A stretch of DNA of 57,403 nt from a virus (taxonomy: Duplodnaviria > Caudoviricetes): positions 1 to 57,403 of IMG/VR virus record IMGVR_UViG_3300046170_000265. One strand, given 5' to 3'. Under the pieces are notes generated by a model. The model was not told where the DNA came from. It searched no databases and saw only the letters and a list, made by a program, of their open reading frames with translations. Made by a program: the position numbers and the translations under genes. Positions 1 through 46,662 of this stretch are shown here, piece by piece (positions within the stretch are counted from its first letter, which is position 1; the number at the start of each line of letters is the position of its first letter).

Positions 1-31
1 TTGAGATTTTGGTATTTTGTAATGAATGGAC

Positions 32-80
32 GTGAGGGGCGGCTCGTAAGGAGAGCAAACCGAGCCGTTGCTCCCCTCAC
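32..80 (-). ncRNA. Conserved stem-loop downstream of capsid gene A, loop GUUUGCUCUCCUUA
   Basis: GTGAGGGG/CCCCTCAC and CGGCTCG/CGAGCCG stems; same 12-nt loop core at 42332-42343. Confidence 0.6.
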
Positions 81-100
81 TCCAATTGGGTCGTTAACGC

Positions 101-984
101 TTAGGTAAGAGCGTTAATCATTCCACTGCCCTTCTGATTCATGTGCATCAATCCGTATTCCCCGACGACAAAATGTTTCTCGCAGTCGCCTGTTTTAGCA
201 AACAGTGAGAGAACGGACGCAGGACGGCAGAACGCCACATTGACGGATCAAGCAGGAACGCATGGTCAGTCATCTGGTGGCGGTTAAGGACAGTCTTGTA
301 AGTTCCAAATGGCCCAACGTAGACATCAACCGCTGCTGTAAGCGTTTTGTTGTCATCGTTGAACGTCCGGTTCCGACCGACGCTGGTGAAGTTTGACACA
401 ATGATTGCGTCTGCGGGCTTGATCATCAGATCGTTGGTCTGCACCTTCGTTGAAACACTTCTGCCCAAGTTGAGCAGCATTGTTTCTGTAAGTGCAGCTG
501 TACCACCGGCTTCGGTAGTTGCAGCATCGATCAGCTGATCACAGCTGTCCATCTCACGGGCTACAGGTGTAGCTGAGTTGTTACCAGCTACCTGTGCGTT
601 TGATGCGCCGATCATAGCGTGTTCTAAATCCCTTTTGATGGATTTTAGCGCACGACCAAGGGCGTATGCGGTGTCTTTTGCACGTCCGTATGTCGAAGTA
701 ACATCAGCCGTGGCGGCCACCTGGAAAGCCTCTGTCAGGATCTGAGTTGTCCCGCTGAGCATTGTTGTTGGGGTCAACGCATTGATTGTTGCGTCTGCAC
801 CTTCAACCTGTGCGTTGGACGCCGGGCTGCGAAGCGCATCAGATTGGTATTGATACACACGGTTGTGTACCTTCTGCGATTTCATCATCGAGAAGAATGG
901 TGTGTCAAAGGGTGTAATATCGGTAATGATGTCCGAGACATCTTCTTTCTGGCCGATACTTTCGTATGAGGTAAATGTACTCAT
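101..984 (-). CDS. Major capsid protein A (SU10/DUF5309-like), apparent frameshift near 205
   Basis: EDVSDIITDITPFDTPF and ALKSIKRDLE motifs; homologous to 42369-43259; a C-terminus matching copy B (HFVVGEYGLMHMNQKGSGMINALT) continues in another frame. Confidence 0.9.
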
Positions 985-2083: not shown

Positions 2084-2371
2084 TCACTCTTCTCCTCTCT
2101 GATTGTTGTCATCGTTTGCGGCTTCACTGGCTGATCGATCTCTGTCTTCGACTTGGACACGCTGTTGTCAGTGTCCCGAAACGATATCGACCAGTGCGCG
2201 ATAATGTTGATGTGCCTTTTCCCGGGCGTCGCTTTCCTCTGGTTTTGAGTTAGCGAACGCCTGGAAAGTGGCATCAACGAGTTGGTTTACGGTCGAGTTA
2301 AAGGCTTCTGCAGCGAGTAGTTTTTCCGCTGCAATGCCCTGCTCGACCAACTTCATTTGTTGGTCTTCCAT
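2084..2371 (-). CDS. Small conserved head-module protein; end approximate, frameshift near 2170
   Basis: AAGGAG RBS; homolog at 44314-44599 (FNS.VN.LV...FQ.F.NSKPEE). Confidence 0.7.
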
Positions 2372-2392
2372 CTATTTTCTCCTTGGGGAAAG

Positions 2393-6462: not shown

Positions 6463-9400
6463 GCTGATAACGCTCCTTGTCCTAGAGTAAGTGCGCCTTG
6501 CTTTTCTTCTTCTTCGCCTTCAGCAACCAGCATATTTGCCATGATGGCAGCTAGTAAGGCTGCAAGAGGCATACTGTAGAGGGTGAAAACATCACCCCCA
6601 TTAAGCACCTCACGAAGCAGCTTTGCTGTCTTCGGCATCTGCTGTTTGGTCATTTTAGGGTCAAAGAAGTAAGCTGCGACTGGATCAGCCGACATTTCAT
6701 GAGGGGTTTGAAGGTAGTTTTCTTCAAAGTCGATCAAAGCCAGCTCATTCATTTGCGCCAGGTCATTACGCCCCGCTGCTTGCTGTCTGGTGATCGCTGC
6801 ACCCATTTCATCGTAGGACGGGCGTACTTTTTCACTTGTGCCATCTGGCATCGTGAGTGCGCCGGTTCTCTGGAAACGGATGATCTCATCGATGATGTCT
6901 TGGGCATCCTGTTGAGTATAGCCCTTGCGACCATCTTTACCGGTGACAGCAAAATCCATCATTGAAGCAAGTATGTCTCGGAAAGTGCCTCTGTAGACGT
7001 TCCCTACCGCAATTGGTTTCCCATCAACGGGGCGTCTGTAGGTCATTTTGCGTGATGTAGGAGCACCTTCTGGTGTGCCGGGTAAGAACCTACCCTCAAC
7101 GCCATGACCGATTTCGTGTAAACCAGCGAACAATGAACCTAATGGAGTAACTGTCTCATCCGGGTTTCGCTTGTTCTGATAAGGCTTTAAAACGCCAATC
7201 GTTTTGGCTACCACTTCACCGCTGATGCGGCTGCGGGTCATTTCTCTTGGGTCAGATGGACCTTGAGCTGCACCTACAGTGAAGCCCTTGCCCAAAGATT
7301 TTTTCCCGAAAACCTTGGCTAATTCACTTTTGTTTGTGACGAGATGAAACGCCAGATTTAAGGCTTTCGCCAGTTTTTGGGCTGTCTCAACATCTTTGAT
7401 GCCGTTTTCGTATTGAGAACCGGGTTTACCGATCTCAAACATAACTTGAGCAAGCTGCTGTGTTTCGCGTACCTCTTCAGGCTGCGCTGGCCTTGATCCT
7501 ACTGAAGGGCGGGTTTGATATTGTAATCCACTATCAGTTCTTCGCTGGCCGAAGTCGAGGGAGAGCTGTTTGCTTTGTTCAATTGACGCTGGTGCATCAT
7601 TCGTTCCGCTTCCAGCTTGCCCTGAAGCAATTCTTGCGTCTCTATCCGCATATGCCACGGCTTCTGTTGCTCTGAAGGCTTCTGCGCCTTCGGAGAATTT
7701 TTCGTAGATGAGGTTCGCGCCGAGGTCATTGTATAACTCCTGTTCGTATGCCCAAAGTATAGCCTGTGCAGACTGTGGTGTCACCCCAAGGTTTTCACCT
7801 ACTCTGGTAAACAAATCTTTCATTGTTGGGCGTTCTAATTCAGTTGGTGCATCGACCAATCCAGAGCCTTCCAGCTTTGGATCAGCTAACAAACCACCAG
7901 TGTGTCGTCTTACTGTTCTACTAGCCCACAAATCGACTGTGACTTCATGGATACCGTTAAGGTTCATGTAGAAAGGGCCAACTTTCGGTCCAAACAATTG
8001 GATGGCTGGAACAACAGCGTTTTTTCCGCCTTTGATCTTGCCTTGCGGCCCATAACCAGCCTCTTTACGCATTGCGTCAATTTCAGCTTTGGTTTTTGTG
8101 CTGTTAAGCCAGCTTATTGTCTCATTAAGGCCACGGGTGTTGAGCATATGGCGAAGAATGTAAAGTCCTGGCTCAATTGATCCAGCCTTCTGACCTAATA
8201 GTTTACCAGTGACTGGATTAACAAGGCGTTCTTCAAAGCGTTTCCGCTTGTCAGAGTAAATCTGCCCTATTTCACCTAACTCACCTGTTCTGTAGTAGTG
8301 CATGGCTAATGAGCCAGCATAACGCCAGTTAAGTTTTGGCTTTTGACCTACTGATGTGAGGGCAGCGAGTAGAAGAAACAGCTGCCTGTGATCAGGTGTC
8401 TTGTTGATTTCTGGTAACACTTCAGCAGTCGTTGCGATTGCCTCGCGAATGTCATTGTCATACCAATGCGCTGCATCAGGTGTTTTGTCTGACTGAAATT
8501 GCGCCTCTTTGGTCATTTCATCAGCGACGGTCTCAAAGTCACCAGCATCGTTGTAAGGGTCAAGGTCACGACCAAAACGCTGGTTCTGCTCATTCATCAA
8601 TTCTTCACCGATTTCACGGTGCTTTCGTCTTGGTGGAGCAGTCTCAGGTGAGCGGAGGTCAACAAAATAGTTGATGTCTTCATCTTGGCTAGTGTCGAGG
8701 ATGCCATCACGGTAAATGTTTGGACCGGATTTACGCCGTTTTGCCTGTGCTTGATCTTGCTGTTCCTGAACACGATCGACATATGGGCCGAGGTAAGCAG
8801 CTGCGCTAAGTTTGTCAGCGGCTTGATCTACTGCGTTATCAAGGATGTTATTTGCTGTCCGAACTGGGTCGCTGCCCAGATTGCCAGCCATGTTATCGAG
8901 AGCAGATGTGATGATGTCTTTGTCGTCCTGGTTTAAATCAGGATCGGTCTTAACATCCATCTTGATGCCATCGACAAACGTGCGGTTTGCTAGGATACCA
9001 CGCTGGTAGCCAGGTGACTCGTAACCGACTGTGCCTCGCGCAGGTGCTACACCTGGAACGTATGCACCGGGCCGGGTTGAGTACTTGCCTGGATTACGTT
9101 CAACCTCACCGGCTACTGCCCTTGCTAACTCTGGAAGTGCATCAGCGTAGGTTCCATCGGTCAGCATTTTACGGTAGCTGGCGATTTCTGGTGCAAGCTG
9201 TGGAACTGTTCGCTCCAACTCAGCAAGCACTTCTTTGACGCCTTCCCGTGTAAGACCAGTCGCCTTAAACATCACCGCTTCTGGCGATTGCTGTTGGGCA
9301 TCCGGGTCCATACCAGCTGGAGGGTTGTCTAGTTCGAGGTTTAGTTGGCGAAGTTCAGCTTCGCGCCGTTTCTGGGCTTCGTCCTGGTCGATATTCTGTT

Positions 9401-24011: not shown

Positions 24012-24433
24012 TAGCGGTTGTCGCCATTTCCACGCAATTGGTCTCGTCTGTCTCGATCCTGCAGCTTTTCTAGGTTCAGCTCAGCAATTTCTTCGAGCTG
24101 GTAACCAATGTCGTTTGCTACAGCTGTGACATACCAAAGCACGTCACCAAGCTCTTTTGCGATTTCGTGGCGCATCCTGGAACGCATCTCGATCATCGGT
24201 TCTTCCAGTGCAGTGTCATCGTGTTCACCGTCACGGAAGTATTTCTTCAGTTTTTCTGCGACTTCGCCGGCTTCGCCAACTAGACCAAGCACTGGATAAA
24301 CCAATGCACCTGGGTAGATGGCTGTTTGCATTGCCGATACGGCATAATCCTCGAAAGTCATGGGAAACGTATCCCAGTCTTCGAAATTATCGTTATCAGC
24401 ATCGAAATCATCGAATAGGTCACGCATGGTCAT
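24011..24433 (-). CDS. mazG: MazG-like nucleotide pyrophosphohydrolase
   Basis: GLVGEAGEVAEKLKK, KELGDVLWY and C-terminal GNGDNR. Confidence 0.9.
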   Translation of the reverse strand: MTMRDLFDDFDADNDNFEDWDTFPMTFEDYAVSAMQTAIYPGALVYPVLGLVGEAGEVAEKLKKYFRDGEHDDTALEEPMIEMRSRMRHEIAKELGDVLWYVTAVANDIGYQLEEIAELNLEKLQDRDRRDQLRGNGDNR

Positions 24434-26139
24434 GGTAATTCTCCTTGTGGTTTGTACTCAGGTGAAACCAATTGATCGGGTTCATCATCTGAGCCGAGTA
24501 GATGTGTAAGTTCTTCTTCAAGCAGTCGACCGCTATCCCTGTTGAAGACTAGAGTTCCGGCGTTGCTTGAGGTTTGTCCGGTAAAGCGATTTTTCAGGAC
24601 CGCTAGGTGTCGAATGTCGCTGTCTGGTTCGTCACGATCGACGTTGAGTGCAATGACAGCATCACTTAGCTGACCAAGGCTTGCCGATCCTCTGAGATGG
24701 TTCAACCTGACCGGCTGACCACCACTTTCATGGCCTGAGTTCCCTTCGGGGCGACGGACGTGCGACACCAGGATTAAACCAATGCCCAGCTCCTGGACTA
24801 ATGTCCGCAGCTTAGTCATGGCGTAATCAATCAGTTGCCGCTCGTTACCAAAGCCCCCTGCTCCCATTTGGGTGCAAAGGATTGAGATGTGATCCAATAC
24901 GATCCAACGGACACCCAAGGCTTTCACCATGTAGGTAATCCGTTGACAGATCAGATCGACGTCTGAGCTACCAAAATGGTCATAGAGGTAGACAGGATGC
25001 CGGCCATCACCGAACAAGTCGTCGAAGGCTGCAACGATCTCTTCATCAGTTGCCAGGCTTCGATCGATCGTAATGTTCTTGCTCATGTGTGTGCCAACCA
25101 GGCCAAGCAAGGTCCGCTTGTTGCTTTCTTCAAGCATAATCAAGCCAACCTGCTCACCGGATTGGTGCAGGTGATAGCAAATCTCTTTCACGAAAGTTGA
25201 TTTCCCGATCCCAGAGCCAGCAGCAATTGTGACCAGCTCATACGGTCTTAACCCGTGCAGAATGTCATTTAGCACCGAGTAAGGGTATGTGATGGATGAG
25301 GCTGCATCATCCACAGCAATTGCGCTTCTGAGATCGGTAGCAGCCACGATCCCGTCAGGCCGATAGTCACGGGCCTGAAAGATCGCCTGAATTACTTCTG
25401 CTGATTTACCTTGGACCAGGCACTCATTGGCGTCCTTGCAGGGTAAATATGCAATTTTGCATCTACCGACAGGTAGTGTTTCTGCGACAGCCAGGGCCGC
25501 ATTTTGGCCGCTACTGTCCATATCGAACATCAGGATCACTTCCTCGAAGCCGAGAACGTAATCCCAATTGTCTTTAATTGCTTTGACAGCCGATGGTGCG
25601 CCATTAGGCAGCGACACCACTGGCCATCTGTTGTTTTGGATCTGTGAGACGCTCAGGCAGTCAATTTCACCTTCTGTGATGACCAGCTTTTTTCCGCTGC
25701 GCCATAGGTGTGACCCAAACAACGTGCTTTCACGTTGGTTGCCAATGATTGAGAACCTTTTGTCTTTGGTCCTGAGCTTCTGGGCAACAGGTTTGCCATG
25801 CTTGTCTCGATAGACAGCAATCTGCGTCTCTTGCCCGTTGTGTTTACCAACCAGGTATCCAAACTTTTTGCAGGTCGCCTCAGTTAATCCTCGAGCTGGT
25901 ATCGCTTTTGGGATGCCCGAGAGTAAGACTTCTTGTTTCGTTTGACCTTGGTTCGGTACTGGTTGCGGTTTGTCGCCAACTGGCGAGCCACCGGATTTCT
26001 CACTGCCACTATAGGTGGTACAGGAGAAACAGAACGTATGTCCGTCATCAAATACTCCATTTGCGTCTGATGAGCCGCAAGCATCACAGCTGGTATGAGT
26101 TACGAACTGTGATTGGCTCTCCTTTGGTATTGCTTGCAT
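24430..26139 (-). CDS. Primase/helicase (T7 gp4-like)
   Basis: Zn finger CDAC..CFSC, TOPRIM TEGEIDC and FDMD, Walker A AGSGIGKS, LDH, LRGS, KNRFTG; AGGAGAG RBS before MQAIP. Confidence 0.95.
   Translation of the reverse strand: MQAIPKESQSQFVTHTSCDACGSSDANGVFDDGHTFCFSCTTYSGSEKSGGSPVGDKPQPVPNQGQTKQEVLLSGIPKAIPARGLTEATCKKFGYLVGKHNGQETQIAVYRDKHGKPVAQKLRTKDKRFSIIGNQRESTLFGSHLWRSGKKLVITEGEIDCLSVSQIQNNRWPVVSLPNGAPSAVKAIKDNWDYVLGFEEVILMFDMDSSGQNAALAVAETLPVGRCKIAYLPCKDANECLVQGKSAEVIQAIFQARDYRPDGIVAATDLRSAIAVDDAASSITYPYSVLNDILHGLRPYELVTIAAGSGIGKSTFVKEICYHLHQSGEQVGLIMLEESNKRTLLGLVGTHMSKNITIDRSLATDEEIVAAFDDLFGDGRHPVYLYDHFGSSDVDLICQRITYMVKALGVRWIVLDHISILCTQMGAGGFGNERQLIDYAMTKLRTLVQELGIGLILVSHVRRPEGNSGHESGGQPVRLNHLRGSASLGQLSDAVIALNVDRDEPDSDIRHLAVLKNRFTGQTSSNAGTLVFNRDSGRLLEEELTHLLGSDDEPDQLVSPEYKPQGELP
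24459..24476 (-). promoter_or_regulatory. Putative phage RNAP promoter upstream of mazG and the polymerase
   Basis: ATCAATTGGTTTCACCTG variant of the repeated motif. Confidence 0.6.
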
Positions 26140-26165
26140 TGCTGTCTCTCCTGTAATTGCTTGAA

Positions 26166-27638: not shown

Positions 27639-30518
27639 TCATGTCATGAAGTAGTCGCTTTCGCGAACCTTCGTAATGTCCAGATCGCCTTTGGCCGGTA
27701 CTTCTGGCCATTTCACTATCCGGAGTTTCAAGGCATCCAGTTCAGCATTAAGACCCTCGAGCAACCCTTCATCCTCTTCATGTTCAATTAGTTCTTGAAG
27801 GTTGTGAATTTGCTCCTTGATCTCGAGGCTGTCTGGATCTGGGTGTCTTGCTTTGCACTGCTCGAGAAGGTCGCTGTATAGACAATATCCGTCATACATC
27901 TCGACCATTGCGTCTCTGGCAGCATCCCGCATCACCTCAGCATTACCACAGGTAGTGGCATAGCTGTCGTGAACGACCATAAGATCAGTAACCCCATGAT
28001 CAGCGCAGCGTAAGGCAGTTAACATCAACAATGTGCTATCCATCGAATGGATTATGTTGGGACTTACTGCACTGACGCTTTTATTAGGATCAATGCCGGG
28101 CATTGTTTTGGTGTAGCTCATCAAGCCCCGAGATTTGATAGCCTCGATATCATGGCTGTAAAGAAACACCCGACGCCTTGCCGACTTATTGTTCCGATAG
28201 TATTGATGCACCGGAAAGTTGAGTTTTGGCGTTTTGAAAGTGAGATGTAGATCGGCGTCAACCATGATCTTGGCGCAAGCTTGGAAAAATTCCATGCCAT
28301 CTTTGGCTGACTTGATCACACTTTCGATTGCGTCTTGACTGATACCAGCTAAGTAATGAGATGCCTGGTAACCGCCATCTTCAGGGAATGGATGCTTCTC
28401 ACGTTCACCAGCGCGAACCTCAAGATCCATTTCGTCCATCCAGTCTTTTTTGAACTGCTGGGCGAAGCCATACTTGCGGCTCGAATAAGCCCAAACCATG
28501 GCCGGTCTCTTGATGACACTCCGGTTTAGGTACTTTTTGCCTTTTGGATTTTCATCAGTCGGCTCGACCTCATAGGACAACAGTACTCTTGCAATGTCGA
28601 TTTCTTGATCACGCTTCAATCTTCTGTGTGAAGCAGTCTTTTTATAATCACGCTTTGCCTTGCGTTTCCTTTTCTCGAGAGCGTCCATTTCATCTAGATC
28701 GTCAGCTTTTTCAGCCATGATCCTTTGATATGCTTTGTGCGCTTCCCGATCATTGTCATTCGCAGGGTCAAGCTCTTGATTTGCAAGTTTCTCAGCCTTG
28801 TCAGCTTCGATCATTTCTTCTGCAACCACGAGACAAGCCTTGTACAGGTCGTTAGGCTTATCTTCTGAGCCTTTGACCAGGTTAACTAGCAATCCGTCAT
28901 CTTCGTTCAAGCTAGCAGCAGCGTAATGCTGGATGCCGGATTGAGTTGCATCGACGGCAACAGGTAAACCAGACCAATGGTCCTTGCCTTCTTGCTGGGC
29001 AACCATGTATTCAGCCAAGTCACGGCAAGCAGCTAAGAACTGGAATGGATCGTCAGCCTTGCTCCAGAAATCAAATGACGCCTTGTAATCGATGCCGACG
29101 TTGACCACTTCTTCAAGGTTTTCTTCCACCCATTTGATCCGAGTGTCGTAGCTCTCTTTATCCAAGCCATAGGTGTTTGAAACCTGCAGAAGGATCCATG
29201 CTGAATTTTCCTCTGTTACCTTCGTCTTGTTGGCAAATAGAAACATTGCCCTCAAGAAATCTGTATTGTGGTGGCCAAAATCGCTGACGTGATAGACACG
29301 CCCTCGCCGGTCCCAATTGTGTGGCATCCAGAACTGATCATATTGAGCAAGCTTCCTAGCTTCATTCAATGTACGGCGGATCTTTGACCGGTTGGCCCGA
29401 GCTTGCCTGTTGACGGCTTTGCATCGAGTTAGATTTCGCATATGAGCGATTTGATCATCTTTATCGAGGTCATCGTAGTTCACGCCTTCGTCGAGCTTTG
29501 GAACCTCAACAGTTTTGGTGTTTGGAAACTTTTTGACCAAACGGCCCTTGCCCGTCTTGCGGACCCAATCGACAGCATCGACCACAAAGTCATTAACGGT
29601 GTAAGGCACCTGTTGCAGGAGGTTTAAAGCCTCAACAGCCTTGTCTAAGCTGCCATCTCGCAATCCTGCATCAAGATCCTTACGCTGCTCTGGGCCAGCG
29701 TGTTTGACCATTGGCGTCATGATTGCCAGGCGAGGTGTTATGTATGGACCGATTTGATCCAAACCCCATGGTCTTGGCATTACATTCATTGGTGCAAGGT
29801 ATGGCGACATACGGTCAAGATCAGCAAACTTTTCTTCGATCTCAGCTTCTACCTCGGGACGCAGGATCATGAATTTTTCTGGGAAGTCTTTCGTCTCATC
29901 CGCTAGATCTTTGTGCGTCATGAACACGTCTTTACAAGCAGCTTCGACCACTGACAGTAAAAATGAGCCGACAGTCTGTTCTAAACCGCCATCATCATCT
30001 TCCCACTTCTCGAAGGTAAAGCCTCTTTTGGCTGCCTGACGCAGGACGTAATCTTGACGTTTTTCAACCTTGTCACTTTGCAACGTGGCGTTTTGTGCCA
30101 GCCGCTTTGCTAGGCGGTCACCAGCACGATTTGCTTGAAGTCTGTGTTCAAAATCCAGACACTTGATCGCCTGGCCGACCCTGTTTGCCAGCGTATTGTA
30201 AGTCCATTCTTTCTCATGGCCATCAAGACACTGCATGAAAGCGACATAAGCGACATCAATCTGTGGTAGTTCCGCAAGTGGCTCAAGCCATTTGGCGTTT
30301 TGACCGCGGTTAGCACGGGTTTGCTCAGACTGGCTTACAATCTCATCCATGATGGGCTGAATGTATTGTTCGATTAGTTTGACAGATACAACACTGGCAG
30401 ACATATCAAGGCTCTGGCGGCGGTCTCTAGAGCGAGCTTCGCCCCGATCAACTATGTTGACCTGCTCATGCTCCAAAGCATCTTTTCTGGTCCTGGGTGT
30501 ATTGTCGTTTGCTACCAT
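27639..30518 (-). CDS. Single-subunit T7-like RNA polymerase (959 aa)
   Basis: DRRGRVY, PFQFLA, motif A DATQSGIQHY, motif B RSVIKRPAMVWAY, PNIIHSMDS, motif C VHDSY. Confidence 0.96.
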   Translation of the reverse strand: MVANDNTPRTRKDALEHEQVNIVDRGEARSRDRRQSLDMSASVVSVKLIEQYIQPIMDEIVSQSEQTRANRGQNAKWLEPLAELPQIDVAYVAFMQCLDGHEKEWTYNTLANRVGQAIKCLDFEHRLQANRAGDRLAKRLAQNATLQSDKVEKRQDYVLRQAAKRGFTFEKWEDDDGGLEQTVGSFLLSVVEAACKDVFMTHKDLADETKDFPEKFMILRPEVEAEIEEKFADLDRMSPYLAPMNVMPRPWGLDQIGPYITPRLAIMTPMVKHAGPEQRKDLDAGLRDGSLDKAVEALNLLQQVPYTVNDFVVDAVDWVRKTGKGRLVKKFPNTKTVEVPKLDEGVNYDDLDKDDQIAHMRNLTRCKAVNRQARANRSKIRRTLNEARKLAQYDQFWMPHNWDRRGRVYHVSDFGHHNTDFLRAMFLFANKTKVTEENSAWILLQVSNTYGLDKESYDTRIKWVEENLEEVVNVGIDYKASFDFWSKADDPFQFLAACRDLAEYMVAQQEGKDHWSGLPVAVDATQSGIQHYAAASLNEDDGLLVNLVKGSEDKPNDLYKACLVVAEEMIEADKAEKLANQELDPANDNDREAHKAYQRIMAEKADDLDEMDALEKRKRKAKRDYKKTASHRRLKRDQEIDIARVLLSYEVEPTDENPKGKKYLNRSVIKRPAMVWAYSSRKYGFAQQFKKDWMDEMDLEVRAGEREKHPFPEDGGYQASHYLAGISQDAIESVIKSAKDGMEFFQACAKIMVDADLHLTFKTPKLNFPVHQYYRNNKSARRRVFLYSHDIEAIKSRGLMSYTKTMPGIDPNKSVSAVSPNIIHSMDSTLLMLTALRCADHGVTDLMVVHDSYATTCGNAEVMRDAARDAMVEMYDGYCLYSDLLEQCKARHPDPDSLEIKEQIHNLQELIEHEEDEGLLEGLNAELDALKLRIVKWPEVPAKGDLDITKVRESDYFMT

Positions 30519-41956: not shown

Positions 41957-42274
41957 CTAGATACTTTTGTCTGTGGTTAAAAAGCCGTCCAAGTTTTCAG
42001 CTTTCAATCTGGATACAATCTCTGCACCCGTGATGTTTCTATCGGACATGATGTCGAAGCCTTCACGCCGCCACTTCTCGACCACAACAGTGGGAATTGA
42101 AGCTACACGCATGAAGTTACCTTCTCGCTGTCCACGGCTGGCGTCTCGCTCTCGCTTCAGGCCATCCATAAATGATTGAGGTATGTGCTGTGTATGTTTG
42201 CGGGTAAGCGTTTCGTCATCTTCTTCAACAAAGTTGGTATCGATGCCGATAAGGTTCGTGTCACGTTTTGACAT
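41957..42274 (-). CDS. Conserved hypothetical protein downstream of the capsid gene
   Basis: AGGAGA RBS; RVASIP.VVVEKW..EG.DI motif. Confidence 0.75.
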   Translation of the reverse strand: MSKRDTNLIGIDTNFVEEDDETLTRKHTQHIPQSFMDGLKRERDASRGQREGNFMRVASIPTVVVEKWRREGFDIMSDRNITGAEIVSRLKAENLDGFLTTDKSI

Positions 42275-42318
42275 GAGTTCTCCTATTGGTGTCTTTTTTA
42301 GGGATAAATTAAGAGAGA

Positions 42319-42356
42319 CGAGAGGCGCGACAAGGAGAGCAAATTCGCACCCCTCG
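42319..42356 (-). ncRNA. Conserved stem-loop downstream of capsid gene B, loop AUUUGCUCUCCUUG
   Basis: 12-bp stem CGAGGGGUGCGA/UCGCGCCUCUCG that is fully paired only on the minus strand (two G-U pairs). Confidence 0.6.
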
Positions 42357-42368
42357 CCCTCTAACTGT

Positions 42369-43259
42369 TTAGCTTAGGCCGGTAATCATACCTGAGTCTG
42401 AATACGACATATGCTTGAGCGAGTATTCGCCGACAATCGCATGGCGGTCGCCGTCTTGCTGTTTCGCAAGCAGTGTCCGTGTAAACGGACGCAGTACGCA
42501 TGAGCGGAACATGGTTGGGTCGATAAGCAGAGCGTGAGTGCTTAACAAGTGGCGGTTCAAAATGACGCGATATTCACCATAGGGGCTAACGTACAAATCA
42601 ATAGCGTTAACCAAGGTTTTATTGCCATCATTGATTTCACGGCTACGCCCAGAGGCTGCAGTGAAGCCAGCAACGATTTGTGCGTCAGCTGGTTTAATCA
42701 TGAAGGTAGTTGGGTCTGAACCATTGCCGTAACAATCTTCGCCTAGCTCCAGAAGTTTTGCTTCTGTTAGTGGGTCGGTAGCGTTTGAACCAGCATCTAC
42801 AGTTGTAGAAATCTGCGGGATAACACTATCCATCTCACGGGCGGTTGAAGCGTTACCAGTTACCTTGGCGTTGTCTTGGCCCACATAAGCAAATTCTAAA
42901 TCACGCTTTATGGATTTTAGGGCTTTCGACAGCTGATGAGCCGTTTCTTTTGCCCTGCCGTGTAGCCGAATTGAGTCAGCTGTGGCGGTCACCTCAAACA
43001 CATCAGAAAGTATCTGCGTATTATTAGTGCGTAAGGTTGTTGCTGAACGAGCTACGTTCACAAATTCAGCTCCCTCGACAGCCTTATTATCGGCTGCGTT
43101 TGGAAGCGCATCTTCCATCCATTCAAATACGCGAGCATTCACTTTTTCGGATTTGATAAGGGAAGTAAAAGGGGTGTCCGTAGGGGTAATCGAAGTGATA
43201 ATCGAACTGACATCCTCCGCTTTACCTACTTGGTCGTAGGTGGAAAATTCGTTTGCCAT
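42369..43259 (-). CDS. Major capsid protein B (SU10/DUF5309-like)
   Basis: Intact 296-aa ORF; EDVSSIITSITPTDTPF, NNTQI and LKSIKRDLE motifs. Confidence 0.9.
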   Translation of the reverse strand: MANEFSTYDQVGKAEDVSSIITSITPTDTPFTSLIKSEKVNARVFEWMEDALPNAADNKAVEGAEFVNVARSATTLRTNNTQILSDVFEVTATADSIRLHGRAKETAHQLSKALKSIKRDLEFAYVGQDNAKVTGNASTAREMDSVIPQISTTVDAGSNATDPLTEAKLLELGEDCYGNGSDPTTFMIKPADAQIVAGFTAASGRSREINDGNKTLVNAIDLYVSPYGEYRVILNRHLLSTHALLIDPTMFRSCVLRPFTRTLLAKQQDGDRHAIVGEYSLKHMSYSDSGMITGLS

Positions 43260-43288: not shown

Positions 43289-44321
43289 TTATGTTTCCCA
43301 ACGCTTCAAAAGAACTTCAGCAATATCGTCGATGTCACTTCCTGCAGACTGTGCCAGCTTTGCCTCTGCATCTTGGATGCGCTTGGCTTTAAGCTGGGCG
43401 TTATTCGCCGGTGACTTATTAGATTTAAGCACCTTCTTGGCGACACGCTTTTTCTTTGTGGTGGTGACTTGCTTGGCTTGGTCGTAAAGACGAGCCTTGT
43501 TCAGCACCTTGATAACCACAGGGTCTACGTAGTTGTTGACTTGTTCTTCGGGCAATCCAAGCCCGATAGCATATGACCTGATATCGTCATAAAGCTGATT
43601 GTTCCAATCCGGCACATCTTGCTCCAGCACCTTTACAGCCTCTTTGGCTGCATCTTGCATTGCTGCTTGTTGCTGTTGCTTTAGTCCGTCATAGAAGCTG
43701 GCTTGCTTCTTCTTTGATAAATTTCAAATCATTGTGTGCGTCCTGAGCTTCTTTGCGCAGTTGCGTGAAGTCAGCGTCATCCAAGTTCTTTGAAGCTAAA
43801 ATCATGTCAACTTCTGAATATGGTTGGTAGCGTTCTTCAGCCTTCTGCACCATGCGCTGCAGGATAGCATCGGTTTTGCCGATATTGTCTTCAGCCTCTT
43901 TGCGTTGAGCTGCTACTTCTTGAGACTTTCTGGTAAGGCTTGCTTCTTGTCCGTAAAGACGCTTCAAATCTTTGATGGATGCCTGTTTGGTTTCGCCTTC
44001 GACTGAGATTTCAATGAGAGTGTCATCGTCAACTTCGACAGTTTCCTCTTCATCATCTTCTTCTTGGTCTTCGGCTTCTTCCTCTTCTTCGTCAGGGTCT
44101 ATCTCTTCATCTTCGTCATCTAGTTCGACTTCTTCAATCGCCTCATCTTCCTGCTCTTGGACATCTTTAGTCTCGTCATTGTCCTGAGCAGTAGCCTCTT
44201 CCGTAGCTTGTTCTGATGGCTGGTCACCAGCGTCTTCCCATCGCTTCAAAAGGGCGTCAGCCGCTTCGTTAACATCTAACGCTTGCGGCCTCTGTTCTTG
44301 AGATGTTTGCACGTTATCCAT
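43289..44321 (-). CDS. Capsid scaffolding protein B, frameshift near 43690
   Basis: ORFs 43689-44360 and 43289-43660 together match scaffold A. Confidence 0.8.
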
Positions 44322-44599
44322 GGTGCTATTCTCCACTGTTATCGTTGGCCTCAGCTTCACGCTTGGTCAGTATTTCGTCACGAATTGCCACACGCTGCTT
44401 TAAGCGTATGGACAACTCCGACAAGACCTCTGTAGTGAAAATAAGACTGTTCTCTTTGGTCGGCTTCTTCAGGTTTCGAGTTAACAAATCCCTGAAATGC
44501 CTCTTCTACTAGACTGTTCACAATGCTATTGAACGTATTGTTTTTCAATAACTCTTCAGCCTGATTGCCTTGGTCATACAAGGCATCTTCGTCTTGCAT
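44314..44599 (-). CDS. Small conserved head-module protein B; end approximate, frameshifted
   Basis: AAGGAGAG RBS; homolog of 2084-2371. Confidence 0.7.
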
Positions 44600-44624
44600 A
44601 GAATTCTCTCCTTAAAGTGTTAGC

Positions 44625-46662
44625 TTAACCAGTTGGGCTGACGATGCCTCGTCTGTCCTCTGTGGTTTTCAGCAATTCTAGTTCGCCTTCATCGACAAAT
44701 TTCTTATGCTCGAACTCAGCTTCTCTGAGGTCTTGCTGGTCTGACTGCATGGCGAATTGTGATTGCGCTTTGGCTGCATCAAGCTCCATCTTGCTGGCTG
44801 CTTGTTGCGCCTGAGTTGCCACCTTCTGTTCAGCAACAACTGTCTGACGCTCCTGCAGTTCCATTTGCTTCTGCGCCATCTGCGCTTGCATCTGAGCTGC
44901 TTGGTCAGGTTGTGGTGGTGGCAGCTGTTCTGGGCTTGTCAGGTACTCATTCACGTTGAGTATTCCTTGCTGCTCCAAAATCTGCTTCATCATGTTGTAT
45001 TTGTTTTCCATGCCGTATAGCGGCTGGAGCGATGGGTCTTGTGACATGAGGGTGTGAAGGGCCAGATACTTCTGTGCTTCACGCTCCTGTTCGCCATAGC
45101 CAAGCTTCATCTCGACCATAACGTCACGCTTCTCTTTCCAAGAGCGTGGGTCAATTTCGACAAAGCCCCCTGCTATATCCACGACCTTTTCGTACTGCTC
45201 GTTTTCAACTACTAGTCCTGTATGCTTCGTGATAAAGCGGCTTCAGGAACTGCATAGCAAAATTACGAGATATAATTTTGGCTCGTTGCTGGCTCATGGT
45301 GGCGAGTTGCTCGACCATGGCAGCACTATTTTGTTTGCTAATAGCGTCCTTGTTCATCCCAGTGCTGAGTGAGCTAACTGAGGATGTCTCTTCTTTTTCG
45401 TCATCAAGCAAATTGATGGTTTGGAAAATGAAGGGGTTTAGGGGTGCTTGCGGCATAGGCTGCACGGCATCTGGGCGGGTTACATTCACGATACCGCCAA
45501 CTTTGTTCGAAATTAGCTCTCTGGCGTTGCTCAAGCCACCTTTCACAATCATGTATTTTGGATTGTTAGCTACCACCGCATGGTCAAGAATTGAGCGTGT
45601 CAGTACAGTTTTAGCGTTTTGAGTGGCAATAAGCTTGCTTGCGAAGTTCGCACCGTAAAAGCTATGGGGCGTAGGTAATGGCGTAAAAGTGATGAACGGG
45701 CGTCTATCGACCTTTTCCATCTCAAGTATCTGGTTGCCAGCTTTGACTACTTTATGAAGCGTAGCCTCACCCGTGGCGTCTGGGTCAATTTTGATATACG
45801 CCTCGTACACCATGATTTCACGTACTTGGTCGATATAGCCATGAGCGTGGTTTCTACGACCGCCGCCGATTTGCTCAAACCTAGCCAGTATCTCAGGGTC
45901 AGTCTCAAGCTCTACGTCTTCATGGTCTGTGCCAATCAGTGAGATTTTGTCTTCGTCATCTGGGTACATCTGGCGCAATTCGGTCAGGCTTTTGCGTGTC
46001 CGGTGCGCACAGAAATCAACATCAATTGATGCAGCTTGTGCTTGGATTAGAAACTCTTCTGGGGCGATTGGCTCAATGCGTACTTGTGATACGTCTATTT
46101 TGCGTTCAATCGTGCCTGAGATAAGTCCAATCTCGTTGGTTTCGCTGTCTACTAGCTCGATGTCGTCATCAGCTAGAAGCAAGTCTAGCTCGTCTTCAGT
46201 TAGGTTCTGAAACTCTTCTTCTTGCGGCTCTGACGCCTGTTCCCAGTAGATTTTACAGACACCTATACGTGCCATCAGGCCATCTAAAATAACTTGTTGG
46301 GCCGCACCGAAAAAATCATTCTGGCGATGGATTACGTAGTCCGTATACGAGGAGCAGATTTCACTTGTTTGCACATCATCCGGCCCTGTTGGCGCAAATC
46401 TAACGATGCGGTTACCAGCTGCAAATGTCTCCAGAAGCAATGCTGACATTGACTGAACGCCAGCCCAAACATCTTGGCTAATATATTTGCTGTTAGCATC
46501 GTGCGCTGGTGTAGGCTTTTCGGCGTTGTAATATTCAGTGACCTTCTTGCGTTCTTGGCTCAACTCACTGTCGTAATAACCTACGGCTGATTTGATGTTC
46601 AGCTCCAAAGCCTTCAGGATATCGCCGTCATCCATGGGCTGGTAGTCATCTATTTTTGCCAT
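44625..46662 (-). CDS. Portal protein B, frameshift near 45210
   Basis: ORFs 45205-46662 and 44625-45182; shares DAISKQNSAAMVEQLATMSQQR with portal A. Confidence 0.9.

What the first reader, a model, noticed from the sequence alone, without database searches (positions are those of the whole stretch)
42319..42356. Covarying RNA hairpin with an invariant anti-Shine-Dalgarno loop after both capsid genes
Seen: just after the capsid stop in both phages (32-80 and 42319-42356) lies a hairpin whose stem sequences differ but whose loop core UUUGCUCUCCUU is identical. The B stem is fully paired only on the coding strand through two G-U pairs, which points to an RNA element. There is no good U tract, so it is not a plain terminator. 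Known: several alphaproteobacterial sRNAs use C/U-rich loops to pair with SD sequences. Inference: this is either a 3'UTR-derived riboregulator from an abundant late mRNA, or a cis pseudoknot with the next gene's AGGAGA RBS (about 42281-42286) that sets capsid-to-minor-protein stoichiometry.
Basis: partly seen in the sequence, partly recalled or inferred. Interest (0 to 1): 0.85.

Follow-up and report, generated by a model that had tools for sequence, protein, structure and literature searches.

The report
Anti-ribosome-site RNA hairpin after phage capsid gene
A clade of uncultured aquatic T7-like phages keeps, right after the major capsid gene, an RNA hairpin whose stem changes freely while nine loop bases never change and mimic the ribosome's mRNA-docking sequence, so it probably masks ribosome-binding sites of other phage genes, though no experiment has tested this.

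Summary
Both hairpins exist (extended stems 42307-42366 and 27-84, minus strand). The same element follows the capsid gene in more than 100 related viral contigs. There are 65 distinct stems and 97% of cells pair. All 12 modelled pairs show changes on both sides. G-U pairs favour the coding strand. The loop core GCUCUCCUU is invariant and occurs once per genome. No Rfam family matches.

Outgroups (Methylophilales phage Venkman, pelagiphage HTVC106P, three prophage-like loci) have a plain hairpin at the same place. The stem therefore looks like an ancestral capsid-mRNA 3' hairpin in the position of T7's late terminator. It is not a canonical intrinsic terminator. The loop is a clade-specific addition.

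The next gene's SD varies while the loop does not, and it pairs over only 6-7 bp. The best complements are the ribosome-binding sites of a small gene heading the scaffold-capsid block ("g88", up to 13 bp) and of the primase/helicase gene.

Best reading (about 45%): an anti-RBS loop on a 3' hairpin, acting through long-range folding or in trans. No transcript end or RNA-RNA interaction has been shown.

The parts
42307..42366 (-). Hairpin B, extended stem. The covariance-model core is 42319-42356.
   Evidence: Fold -31 kcal/mol, z -3.96. Model R1 hit at 38.1 bits, E 3.6e-8.
42331..42344 (-). Loop B, AUUUGCUCUCCUUG. The invariant 9-mer GCUCUCCUU is 42332-42340.
27..84 (-). Hairpin A. It has an asymmetric AGCAA bulge in the 5' arm. 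The loop GUUUGCUCUCCUUA is 47-60 and the 9-mer is 48-56.
   Evidence: Fold -32.7 kcal/mol, z -4.02. Model R1 hit 40-67 at 21.5 bits, E 0.0044.
42369..43259 (-). Major capsid gene of phage B (296 aa). Its stop codon lies a few bases before the extended stem.
   Evidence: phrog_1328, E 3.9e-69.
101..984 (-). Major capsid gene of phage A, 52% identical to B. In this record the frame changes near residue 260.
41957..42286 (-). Next gene (105 aa, phrog_3982, function unknown) with its SD AGGAGA at 42281-42286. It pairs with the loop over 6 bp, -8.7 kcal/mol.
44378..44613 (-). g88 of phage B, a small acidic protein gene between portal and scaffold. Its RBS AAGGAGAGA is 44605-44613. It pairs with the loop over 8 bp at -13.5 kcal/mol, second best of the roughly 85 RBS regions scored in the window.
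2168..2384 (-). g88 of phage A, with RBS AAGGAGA at 2378-2384. It pairs with the loop over only 7 bp.
24430..26152 (-). Primase/helicase gene of phage A. Its RBS AGGAGAGA is 26145-26152. An exact AAGGAGAGC lies at 26116-26124, in codons 6-8.

Best explanation
The element has two layers.

First layer: the stem is the hairpin at the 3' end of the capsid mRNA. Outgroup phages also have it, there with a trivial loop. It sits where T7 has its late terminator T-phi (position recalled). It most likely attenuates transcription into the tail genes, protects the abundant capsid message from 3' decay, or does both (inferred).

Second layer: in one large clade of uncultured aquatic T7-like podophages the loop has grown to 12-17 nt. 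It displays an invariant pyrimidine sequence, U-run plus GCUCUCCUU, whose last bases copy the 3' tail of 16S rRNA.

I propose that this loop is an anti-RBS element. It would base-pair with Shine-Dalgarno regions of phage messages and keep ribosomes off them. It could act by long-range folding within the polycistronic late RNA. It could also act in trans, as a stable 3' fragment.

The partners with extended complementarity are two ribosome-binding sites. One belongs to g88, the small gene that heads the g88-scaffold-capsid block, in the form AAGGAGAGCAAAAUG. The other belongs to the primase/helicase gene, in the form (C)AGGAGAGCAAAGAUG. The capsid gene's own weak AAGGAA-type site escapes pairing.

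The predicted effect is that late in infection capsid synthesis stays high. Scaffold-block and replication proteins would be turned down. The next gene, which pairs over 6-7 bp, would be damped in cis.

Shown here: the structure, the strand, the conservation, the single copy per genome and the complementarity pattern. Inferred: the transcript ends, the pairing in vivo and any effect on translation.
For: Structure and strand:
- 73 unique hairpins have 65 distinct stems, and 180 of 1615 pairs are G-U.
- The coding strand is the more stable in 66 of 73, with means of -31.0 and -24.0 kcal/mol. Arms from the same locus pair at -26.9 kcal/mol, arms from different loci at -12.0.

Loop constraint:
- 138 of the 153 loci then held contain an exact GCTCTCCTT.
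- 35 of 37 further distinct capsid-downstream sequences passed a loose pattern for the motif.
- Four of five complete genomes have a single sense-strand copy. The fifth has a second copy away from the hairpin (strands read).

Ancestral stem:
- Venkman has a UUCG-tetraloop hairpin and HTVC106P a plain hairpin at the same position.
- Loci L151-L153, L161 and L179 also have plain hairpins.

Partners:
- Mean longest helix to the loop consensus is 8.75 bp for g88 RBSs, against 5.95 bp to the 16S tail. 47 of 65 unique g88 sites reach 8 bp or more and 26 of 65 reach 9 bp or more.
- The same counts at 8 bp or more are 4 of 48 for scaffold, 3 of 59 for capsid and 12 of 53 for the next gene.
- For primase/helicase, 23 of 56 sites reach 8 bp or more and 15 of 56 reach 9 bp or more.
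- After GGAG, the triplet AGC is the commonest in g88 (16 of 48) and in primase (11 of 37). It is absent in the other three classes.
- Among all 64 possible triplets at the GCU position, the real one ranks 3rd for g88 and 4th for primase. It ranks 32nd, 22nd and 35th for scaffold, capsid and next gene.
- The structure model, run on the opposite strand, picks up the g88 RBS of L100, L173 and L231 as reverse complements of the loop.
- Five of five informative outgroups that lack the loop motif also lack GGAGAG at the g88 site.
- Across five genomes plus the window, 13 RBSs form 9 bp or more with their own loop, against 5.65 +/- 2.89 for control loops. 8 of 300 controls reach 13.

Context:
- CCUCC is strongly depleted on the sense strand of these phages, 27 found against 94.9 +/- 9.6 expected.
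- A massively parallel assay in B. subtilis found that aSD-like 8-mers hundreds of nucleotides from an RBS pair with it, inhibit initiation and promote decay (PMC12697547, abstract seen).
- The icaR 3'UTR does the same through a UCCCCUG motif (PMC3868564, abstract seen).
Against: - No RNA end, discrete small RNA or RNA-RNA contact has been shown.
- In the window itself the complements are modest: 8 bp to g88 of phage B, 7 bp to g88 of phage A, 7 bp to the primase RBS of phage A.
- The partner is not universal. In two of the five genomes g88 is not among the eight best RBSs listed; in G001 its site pairs at only -5.3 kcal/mol.
- Genome-wide enrichment is only about twofold.
- Loops with C instead of U just 5' of GC usually lack a compensating G in the g88 site. 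Direct loop-target covariation therefore rests on very few cases: G001 pairs UUUUGC with GCAAA, and G003 pairs UUUCGC with GCGAA.
- The RBS sets are phylogenetically related, and start codons were chosen by a heuristic.
- A closed 14-nt loop cannot form a 12-13 bp helix without strain or partial opening of the stem.
- Whether g88 and the hairpin lie on one transcript is unknown.
Confidence: 0.45

Rival explanations
1. Cis H-type pseudoknot. The loop pairs with the SD of the gene immediately downstream (the 105-aa protein). This sets the ratio of capsid to minor protein, or insulates that gene from ribosomes that terminate at the capsid stop.
For: - The downstream gene is conserved, and its start lies 31-57 nt after the motif in most loci.
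- Most of its SDs are AAGGAGA, which gives 7 bp with UCUCCUU.
- The motif sits at the 3' side of the loop, 0-1 nt from the stem, with a U-run on the 5' side. That layout suits coaxial stacking of a second stem.
- The one clade with a changed loop (GCCCUCUCCU) is also the only one whose next-gene SD is GAGGG(U), complementary to the inserted CCCUC.
Against: - The SD drifts widely while the loop is invariant.
- The GC of the 9-mer is not explained: the triplet AGC never follows GGAG in this gene's RBS, 0 of 31.
- Mean helix is 6.6 bp, against 6.0 bp to the 16S tail.
- The real triplet ranks 35th of 64 for this class.
- The motif is kept where the next gene is 105 nt away, as in L083 and L148. 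In L056 the usual downstream gene and its SD are absent.
- In L003/L070 a canonical terminator lies between the hairpin and the SD.
- In several loci only 6-12 nt separate the stem from the SD. That linker would have to span a stem of 15-25 bp.
Confidence: 0.2
2. The loop is a recognition site for a protein, not for an RNA. One possibility is a signal specific to the phage's own single-subunit RNA polymerase, so that hairpin plus conserved sequence act as terminator or pause site. Other possibilities are a nuclease processing site or a translational operator.
For: - There is one copy per genome, at the T-phi position, in phages that encode a T7-type RNA polymerase.
- An invariant loop on a freely varying stem is the usual signature of a protein-recognised hairpin.
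- There is no U tract for the host polymerase: only 14 of 73 tails have 5 or more U in the first 8 bases.
- L003/L070 adds a separate canonical terminator behind the hairpin.
- Two RNA contigs from two studies both end at 42338, inside the loop.
Against: - It does not explain why two unrelated genes carry the reverse complement of the loop at their RBS.
- The tail genes behind the hairpin have no copy of the repeated promoter-like motif before them, so termination cannot be efficient.
- The neighbouring 105-aa gene is also present in outgroups that lack the motif.
Confidence: 0.2
3. It is only a 3' stabiliser or attenuator hairpin. The loop sequence would be conserved for structural reasons, or the element would act on DNA.
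For: Outgroups manage with plain hairpins at the same site. A hairpin alone would protect the 3' end.
Against: - Nine loop bases stay invariant while capsid identity falls to about 50% and all 12 stem pairs change. A passive loop would not do this.
- A 12-17 nt loop destabilises a hairpin compared with the tetraloop seen in Venkman.
- G-U pairs and the strand asymmetry argue against a DNA element.
Confidence: 0.05

Closest known systems
icaR mRNA 3'UTR-5'UTR pairing in Staphylococcus aureus (PMC3868564, abstract seen). Related case: hbs mRNA 5'/3'-UTR interaction in B. subtilis (PMC5737220, search listing only).
   Same: A C/U-rich anti-SD motif in a 3'UTR is complementary to the SD region of an upstream cistron. 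Its proposed effect is to block initiation.
   Different: Here the setting is a phage polycistronic late message. The motif sits in a hairpin loop about 2.3 kb from the g88 site. A second candidate target, primase/helicase, lies in another part of the genome. Nothing has been tested experimentally.
Long-range aSD-like anti-RBS sequences (Gill et al. 2025 preprint, PMC12697547, abstract seen).
   Same: Pyrimidine-rich aSD-like 8-mers far from an RBS pair with it and repress. Such sequences are depleted from genes, as CCUCC is depleted here.
   Different: There the sequences are accidental and selected against. Here one copy is invariant and is displayed in an open loop, which implies that it is used.
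T7 T-phi late terminator after gene 10 (recalled, no call).
   Same: Position directly after the major capsid gene of a phage with its own RNA polymerase. A strong hairpin. Essential tail genes lie behind it, which implies read-through.
   Different: There is no U run. The loop is large and has an invariant sequence. Termination has not been shown.
sRNAs with C-rich loops that pair with SD regions (RNAIII and RsaE types). RsaE was seen in a search listing only (PMC6158497). RNAIII is recalled.
   Same: A pyrimidine loop serves as the seed against SD regions. A strongly conserved seed would fit several targets.
   Different: This element has no promoter-to-terminator unit of its own and no U tail. 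If it is a separate RNA it would be a 3' fragment of an mRNA.
Earlier AI note e1-5823030: anti-SD RNA after gp23 of uncultured T4-like phages (unchecked lead).
   Same: An anti-SD-like unpaired sequence placed right after the major capsid gene.
   Different: It is a different phage group, reported there as a separate promoter-to-terminator unit. I did not compare it at sequence level.

Membership tests
Intrinsic (Rho-independent) terminator | G+C-rich hairpin with a short loop (3-8 nt) | tested here: not met
   The stem is strong, but the loop is 12-17 nt in all 73 unique sequences. The scan does not call the hairpin.
Intrinsic (Rho-independent) terminator | U tract directly after the stem | tested here: not met
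   Only 14 of 73 tails have 5 or more U in the first 8 bases. The longest U run is 3 or fewer in 70 of 73.
T7 T-phi-type late terminator of a phage RNA polymerase | Lies after the major capsid gene of a phage that encodes a single-subunit RNA polymerase | tested here: met
   PF00940 polymerase at 27639-30518. The hairpin follows the capsid gene in every locus that contains the capsid 3' end.
T7 T-phi-type late terminator of a phage RNA polymerase | Transcripts end at the hairpin | tested here: inconclusive
   Only assembled RNA contigs were available. No raw reads were laid.
3'UTR anti-SD element pairing with an upstream RBS (icaR type) | aSD-like motif in the 3' untranslated region | tested here: met
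   GCUCUCCUU lies in the loop, 20-60 nt after the capsid stop.
3'UTR anti-SD element pairing with an upstream RBS (icaR type) | Complementarity to an RBS beyond what a generic SD gives | tested here: met
   g88: 8.75 bp to the loop against 5.95 bp to the 16S tail, and 47 of 65 sites reach 8 bp or more. The other three gene classes average about 6 bp. The real triplet ranks 3rd of 64. The feature is not universal across lineages.
3'UTR anti-SD element pairing with an upstream RBS (icaR type) | Both sites lie on one transcript, and pairing lowers translation | not testable with these tools
   Needs transcript mapping and reporter or toeprint assays.
H-type pseudoknot with the next gene's SD | Loop and downstream SD covary | tested here: inconclusive
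   There is one coordinated change (loop CC insertion with GAGGG SD). Elsewhere the SD varies and the loop does not.
Trans-acting 3'UTR-derived sRNA | A discrete stable RNA species | not testable with these tools
   Contigs cannot show RNA ends.
Any Rfam family | Reaches a family's gathering score | tested here: not met
   0 matches in the window at gathering thresholds. The only E-value hits at the hairpin are miRNA-precursor models at 15-17 bits, against thresholds of 60-73.

The most novel reading that the evidence does not exclude
The loop is the seed of a phage riboregulator carried on, or cut from, the 3' end of the most abundant late message. It would switch off translation of a small regulon. 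That regulon would include the primase/helicase gene, the g88-scaffold block and, in some lineages, the polymerase, portal and integrase genes whose RBSs read GGAGAGC. This would be an RNA counterpart of a late translational repressor protein such as T4 RegA (recalled). It may also be convergent with the anti-SD RNA noted after gp23 of T4-like phages.
Probability: 0.25. Interest if true: 0.85.

Novelty: new variant of a known kind. Interest (0 to 1): 0.72.

Why it matters
This is a widespread and very strongly constrained structured RNA in abundant marine phages. It is absent from Rfam. Searches of the paper library for the motif returned 27 papers; the 10 listed were all biomedical or methods papers unrelated to phages.

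If the anti-RBS reading is right, a lytic phage uses the untranslated end of its capsid message to reshape translation late in infection. It would tune scaffold-to-capsid stoichiometry and shut down replication genes. That would extend 3'UTR-to-RBS pairing from a few bacterial mRNAs to phage development.

The reading also gives a clean test. There are nine invariant bases, two named target sites and obvious compensatory mutations.

Tried and rejected
- DNA similarity of the capsid region to 50,697 deposited phage records found no match. The best protein-level relative is 34% identical, so no annotated close relative could be consulted.
- Rfam found nothing.
- Earlier notes of this scan held nothing for this genome or sequence.
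- I tested whether GGAGAGC at RBSs is the start of phage-polymerase transcripts. It is rejected. The GGAGAGC sites of G001 share no upstream consensus. The repeated promoter-like motifs (TTGTGTCCACCC.., TTGTGTTCCCCCAT) lie elsewhere.
- I looked for strong genome-wide enrichment of loop-complementary RBSs. It is only about twofold, so I do not claim a regulon.
- I looked for covariation between the base 5' of GC in the loop and the g88 spacer. It is mostly absent.
- RNA runs: four metatranscriptome contig sets cover the capsid and scaffold genes, with little or nothing laid below 42306.
- The g88 protein and the downstream proteins matched only PHROG families of unknown function, or none. Pfam gave nothing for the 105-aa protein.
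- I considered a resemblance of UGCUCU to the BoxA antitermination sequence (recalled). It matches over only the first six bases, and the late genes are presumably read by the phage polymerase. I did not pursue it.
- An alternative hairpin can form in A-type stems, where GGGGAGCAA in the 5' arm is complementary to the loop. It is lineage-specific and remains unexplained.
- Supplementary files of papers were not consulted.

Full report
**What the window is.**
The record is a 57,403-base viral contig whose genes lie almost all on the minus strand. It carries two sets of packaging and head genes.
- Phage B has a portal gene at 45205-46662, a scaffold, a capsid gene at 42369-43259, and tail genes down to about 35 kb.
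- Phage A has a T7-type RNA polymerase at 27639-30518, a primase/helicase, a family A DNA polymerase, ribonucleotide reductase, a terminase, a scaffold, and a capsid gene that ends near base 101.

The two capsids are 52% identical. Complete relatives are 38-42 kb long. No deposited phage is close: the best capsid match is 34% identical, to an uncultured Caudoviricetes record, with pelagiphage HTVC106P and Methylophilales phage Venkman next.

**The observation.**
Both hairpins are real, and both fold far better than shuffled sequence.
- The 12-mer UUUGCUCUCCUU occurs only in these two loops.
- Hairpin B has two G-U pairs and is 8.5 kcal/mol weaker on the other strand.
- Neither hairpin has a U tract.
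- The capsid gene of phage A changes frame near its end in this record. Its true stop is at 101-103, so hairpin A also starts about 16 nt after the stop.

**Relatives.**
Four scans of viral contigs and one of genome contigs, all with capsid queries, gave more than 200 loci.
- All 58 loci of the first scan that reach the capsid 3' end show the element. Three of them carry a variant loop, GCCCUCUCCU.
- 138 of the 153 loci then held have an exact GCTCTCCTT. The 15 without it are nine truncated loci, the three variant-loop loci and three outgroup loci.
- 35 of 37 further distinct downstream sequences passed a loose pattern for the motif. These come from capsids only 49-61% identical to the query.
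- 73 unique sequences give 65 distinct stems. Each of the eight inner pair positions shows five or six pair types. 11% of pairs are G-U.
- The coding strand is the more stable in 66 of 73. Arms from the same locus pair at -26.9 kcal/mol, and arms from different loci at -12.0.

I built a covariance model from 11 sequences.
- It finds exactly the two copies in the window.
- It gives 83 sense-strand matches at E of 1 or less across the 96 sources searched.
- It gives none in the seven outgroup sources.

On the resulting alignment 97.3% of cells pair, against 57.3% in shuffles. All 12 pairs change on both sides. The covariation score is 0.663, against 0.159 in shuffles and about 0.1 when partners are slid. 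That alignment is fitted to the model, so it leans toward the structure. The independent arm-swap test says the same. No Rfam family matches.

**Two layers.**
Outgroups have the same gene order: portal, small gene, scaffold, capsid, hairpin, a gene of about 105 aa, then tail tube A and B. They also have a hairpin at the same spot, but with a trivial loop.
- Venkman has a UUCG tetraloop, preceded by the same UAAUACUAAUUG spacer seen in this clade.
- HTVC106P has a plain hairpin.
- Plain or terminator-like hairpins occur in L151-L153, L161 and L179.

So the stem is old and the loop is an addition of this clade. The position is that of T7's T-phi (recalled). The hairpin is not a canonical intrinsic terminator. 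One lineage has added a canonical terminator behind it (L003/L070). The tail genes behind the hairpin have no copy of the repeated promoter-like motif in front of them, so read-through is required.

**What the loop pairs with.**
The loop ends in CUCCUU(A), like the 3' tail of 16S rRNA (recalled motif), so any strong SD is complementary to it.

It is usually AAGGAGA but drifts widely, while the loop never changes. It gives 6.6 bp on average, hardly more than it gives to the 16S tail. Only the variant-loop clade shows a coordinated change: the inserted CC creates CCCUC, and only there is the next SD GAGGG.

Two other ribosome-binding sites match the loop well past the SD.
- The small acidic gene that follows the portal gene and abuts the scaffold gene, here called g88, often reads AAGGAGAGCAAAAUG. 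That is the reverse complement of the loop right up to the start codon. 47 of 65 unique sites form 8 bp or more and 26 form 9 bp or more. For scaffold, capsid and next gene the counts at 8 bp or more are 4 of 48, 3 of 59 and 12 of 53.
- The primase/helicase gene often reads (C)AGGAGAGCAAAGAUG. 23 of 56 sites form 8 bp or more.

After GGAG, the triplet AGC is the commonest in both classes and is absent from the other three. Among the 64 possible triplets at that loop position, the real GCU ranks 3rd and 4th for these two classes. It ranks 32nd, 22nd and 35th for scaffold, capsid and next gene. The structure model itself hits three g88 sites on the opposite strand. Five informative outgroups that lack the loop motif also lack GGAGAG at the g88 site. 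Those phages use weak SDs in general, so this co-absence is confounded.

The capsid gene's own site is of the weak AAGGAA type and pairs least with the loop.

**Limits of that evidence.**
- The pattern is patchy. In complete genomes g88 ranks first or second among all RBSs in three of five. Primase ranks first in two.
- In the window itself the complements are only 7-8 bp.
- Genome-wide, loop-complementary RBSs are about twofold enriched: 13 found against 5.65 +/- 2.89 for control loops, with 8 of 300 controls as high.
- GGAG followed by AGC occurs 11 times against 5.1 expected.
- Compensation at the base 5' of GC is seen in G001 and G003 for primase. It is usually not seen for g88.
- The RBS sets share ancestry, and start codons were chosen by a rule that was the same for all classes.

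**Context from the literature and from composition.**
- Canonical aSD words are strongly avoided on the sense strand of these phages. CCUCC occurs 27 times against 94.9 +/- 9.6 expected.
- This fits a recent massively parallel assay. It found that aSD-like 8-mers hundreds of nucleotides from an RBS pair with it and repress, and that such words are depleted from genes (PMC12697547, abstract).
- An invariant aSD-like word held open in a loop is therefore unlikely to be neutral.
- The icaR 3'UTR is the closest worked example (PMC3868564, abstract).

**RNA data.**
Six metatranscriptome runs hold parts of the region. Four were laid, as assembled contigs only. They show that the capsid and scaffold genes occur in RNA libraries. 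Two contigs from two studies end at 42338, inside the loop. Contigs cannot show ends, strand or level.

**Verdict.**
The element is a real, new, strongly constrained phage RNA motif. My estimates:
- About 45%: an anti-RBS loop mounted on the capsid-message 3' hairpin, with the g88 and primase sites as main partners.
- About 20%: the cis pseudoknot with the next gene's SD.
- About 20%: a protein or polymerase signal.
- About 5%: a passive loop or a DNA element.
- The remainder is unassigned.

None of the functional steps has been shown.

Noticed in passing
L009:3642-3873, L033:3641-3858, L047:3241-3464: In these three relatives an ORF-less group I intron of about 220-250 nt interrupts the major capsid gene (Rfam RF00028, 85-94 bits). 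In L009 the insertion lies after base 673 of the capsid coding sequence. Many other relatives have capsid matches about 250 nt too long. Both capsid genes of the window are intron-free.
   Followed up: partly
window 1-57403: The record holds two sets of head genes that are 52% identical at the capsid. It is about 1.4 times the length of complete relatives (38-42 kb). It is probably an assembly joining two related phages. The junction was not located.
   Followed up: partly
window 43660-43702, 44360-44402, 45182-45205, and about 190-214: Several head genes are split by frame changes: scaffold B, portal B, the g88 B end and the capsid A C-terminus. RNA contigs from other samples lack one base at about 43697-43702 and at 44402 relative to the window (table 4). 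This suggests indel errors in the record rather than real breaks.
   Followed up: partly
G004 (reverse-complemented record of L250-L252), sense positions 24331-24390: Just upstream of a 538-aa gene lies GGAGAGCAAA, the exact complement of the loop. It is followed at once by a canonical terminator hairpin with a T run, and then by the gene's real RBS GGGAGAGAAACUACAUG. It may be a short leader or a decoy. It is unexplained.
   Followed up: no
G001, G002, G004, G005: Sense-strand motifs repeated 3-5 times per genome are likely promoters of the phage polymerase. They are TTGTGTCCACCC(T/A)T in G002 and G005, TTGTGTTCCCCCAT in G001, and ACTAACCGACCCCCT in G004. None lies next to the hairpin.
   Followed up: partly
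window 62-79 (A-type stems); also L030, L052, L055, L059: In one stem family the 5' arm plus a conserved AGCAA bulge reads GGGGAGCAA, fully complementary to the loop UUGCUCUCC. An alternative 9-bp hairpin could therefore hide the loop. It is lineage-specific.
   Followed up: no
L199, L209, L211 upstream of g88: A terminator-like hairpin with a T5 run lies 13-15 nt before the g88 SD in these lineages. This would make g88 the first cistron of a g88-scaffold-capsid unit there.
   Followed up: no
G001 sense 8159-8995: A tyrosine-recombinase-like protein is encoded in a T7-like genome, and G003 is classed as a provirus. Some members may be temperate.
   Followed up: no
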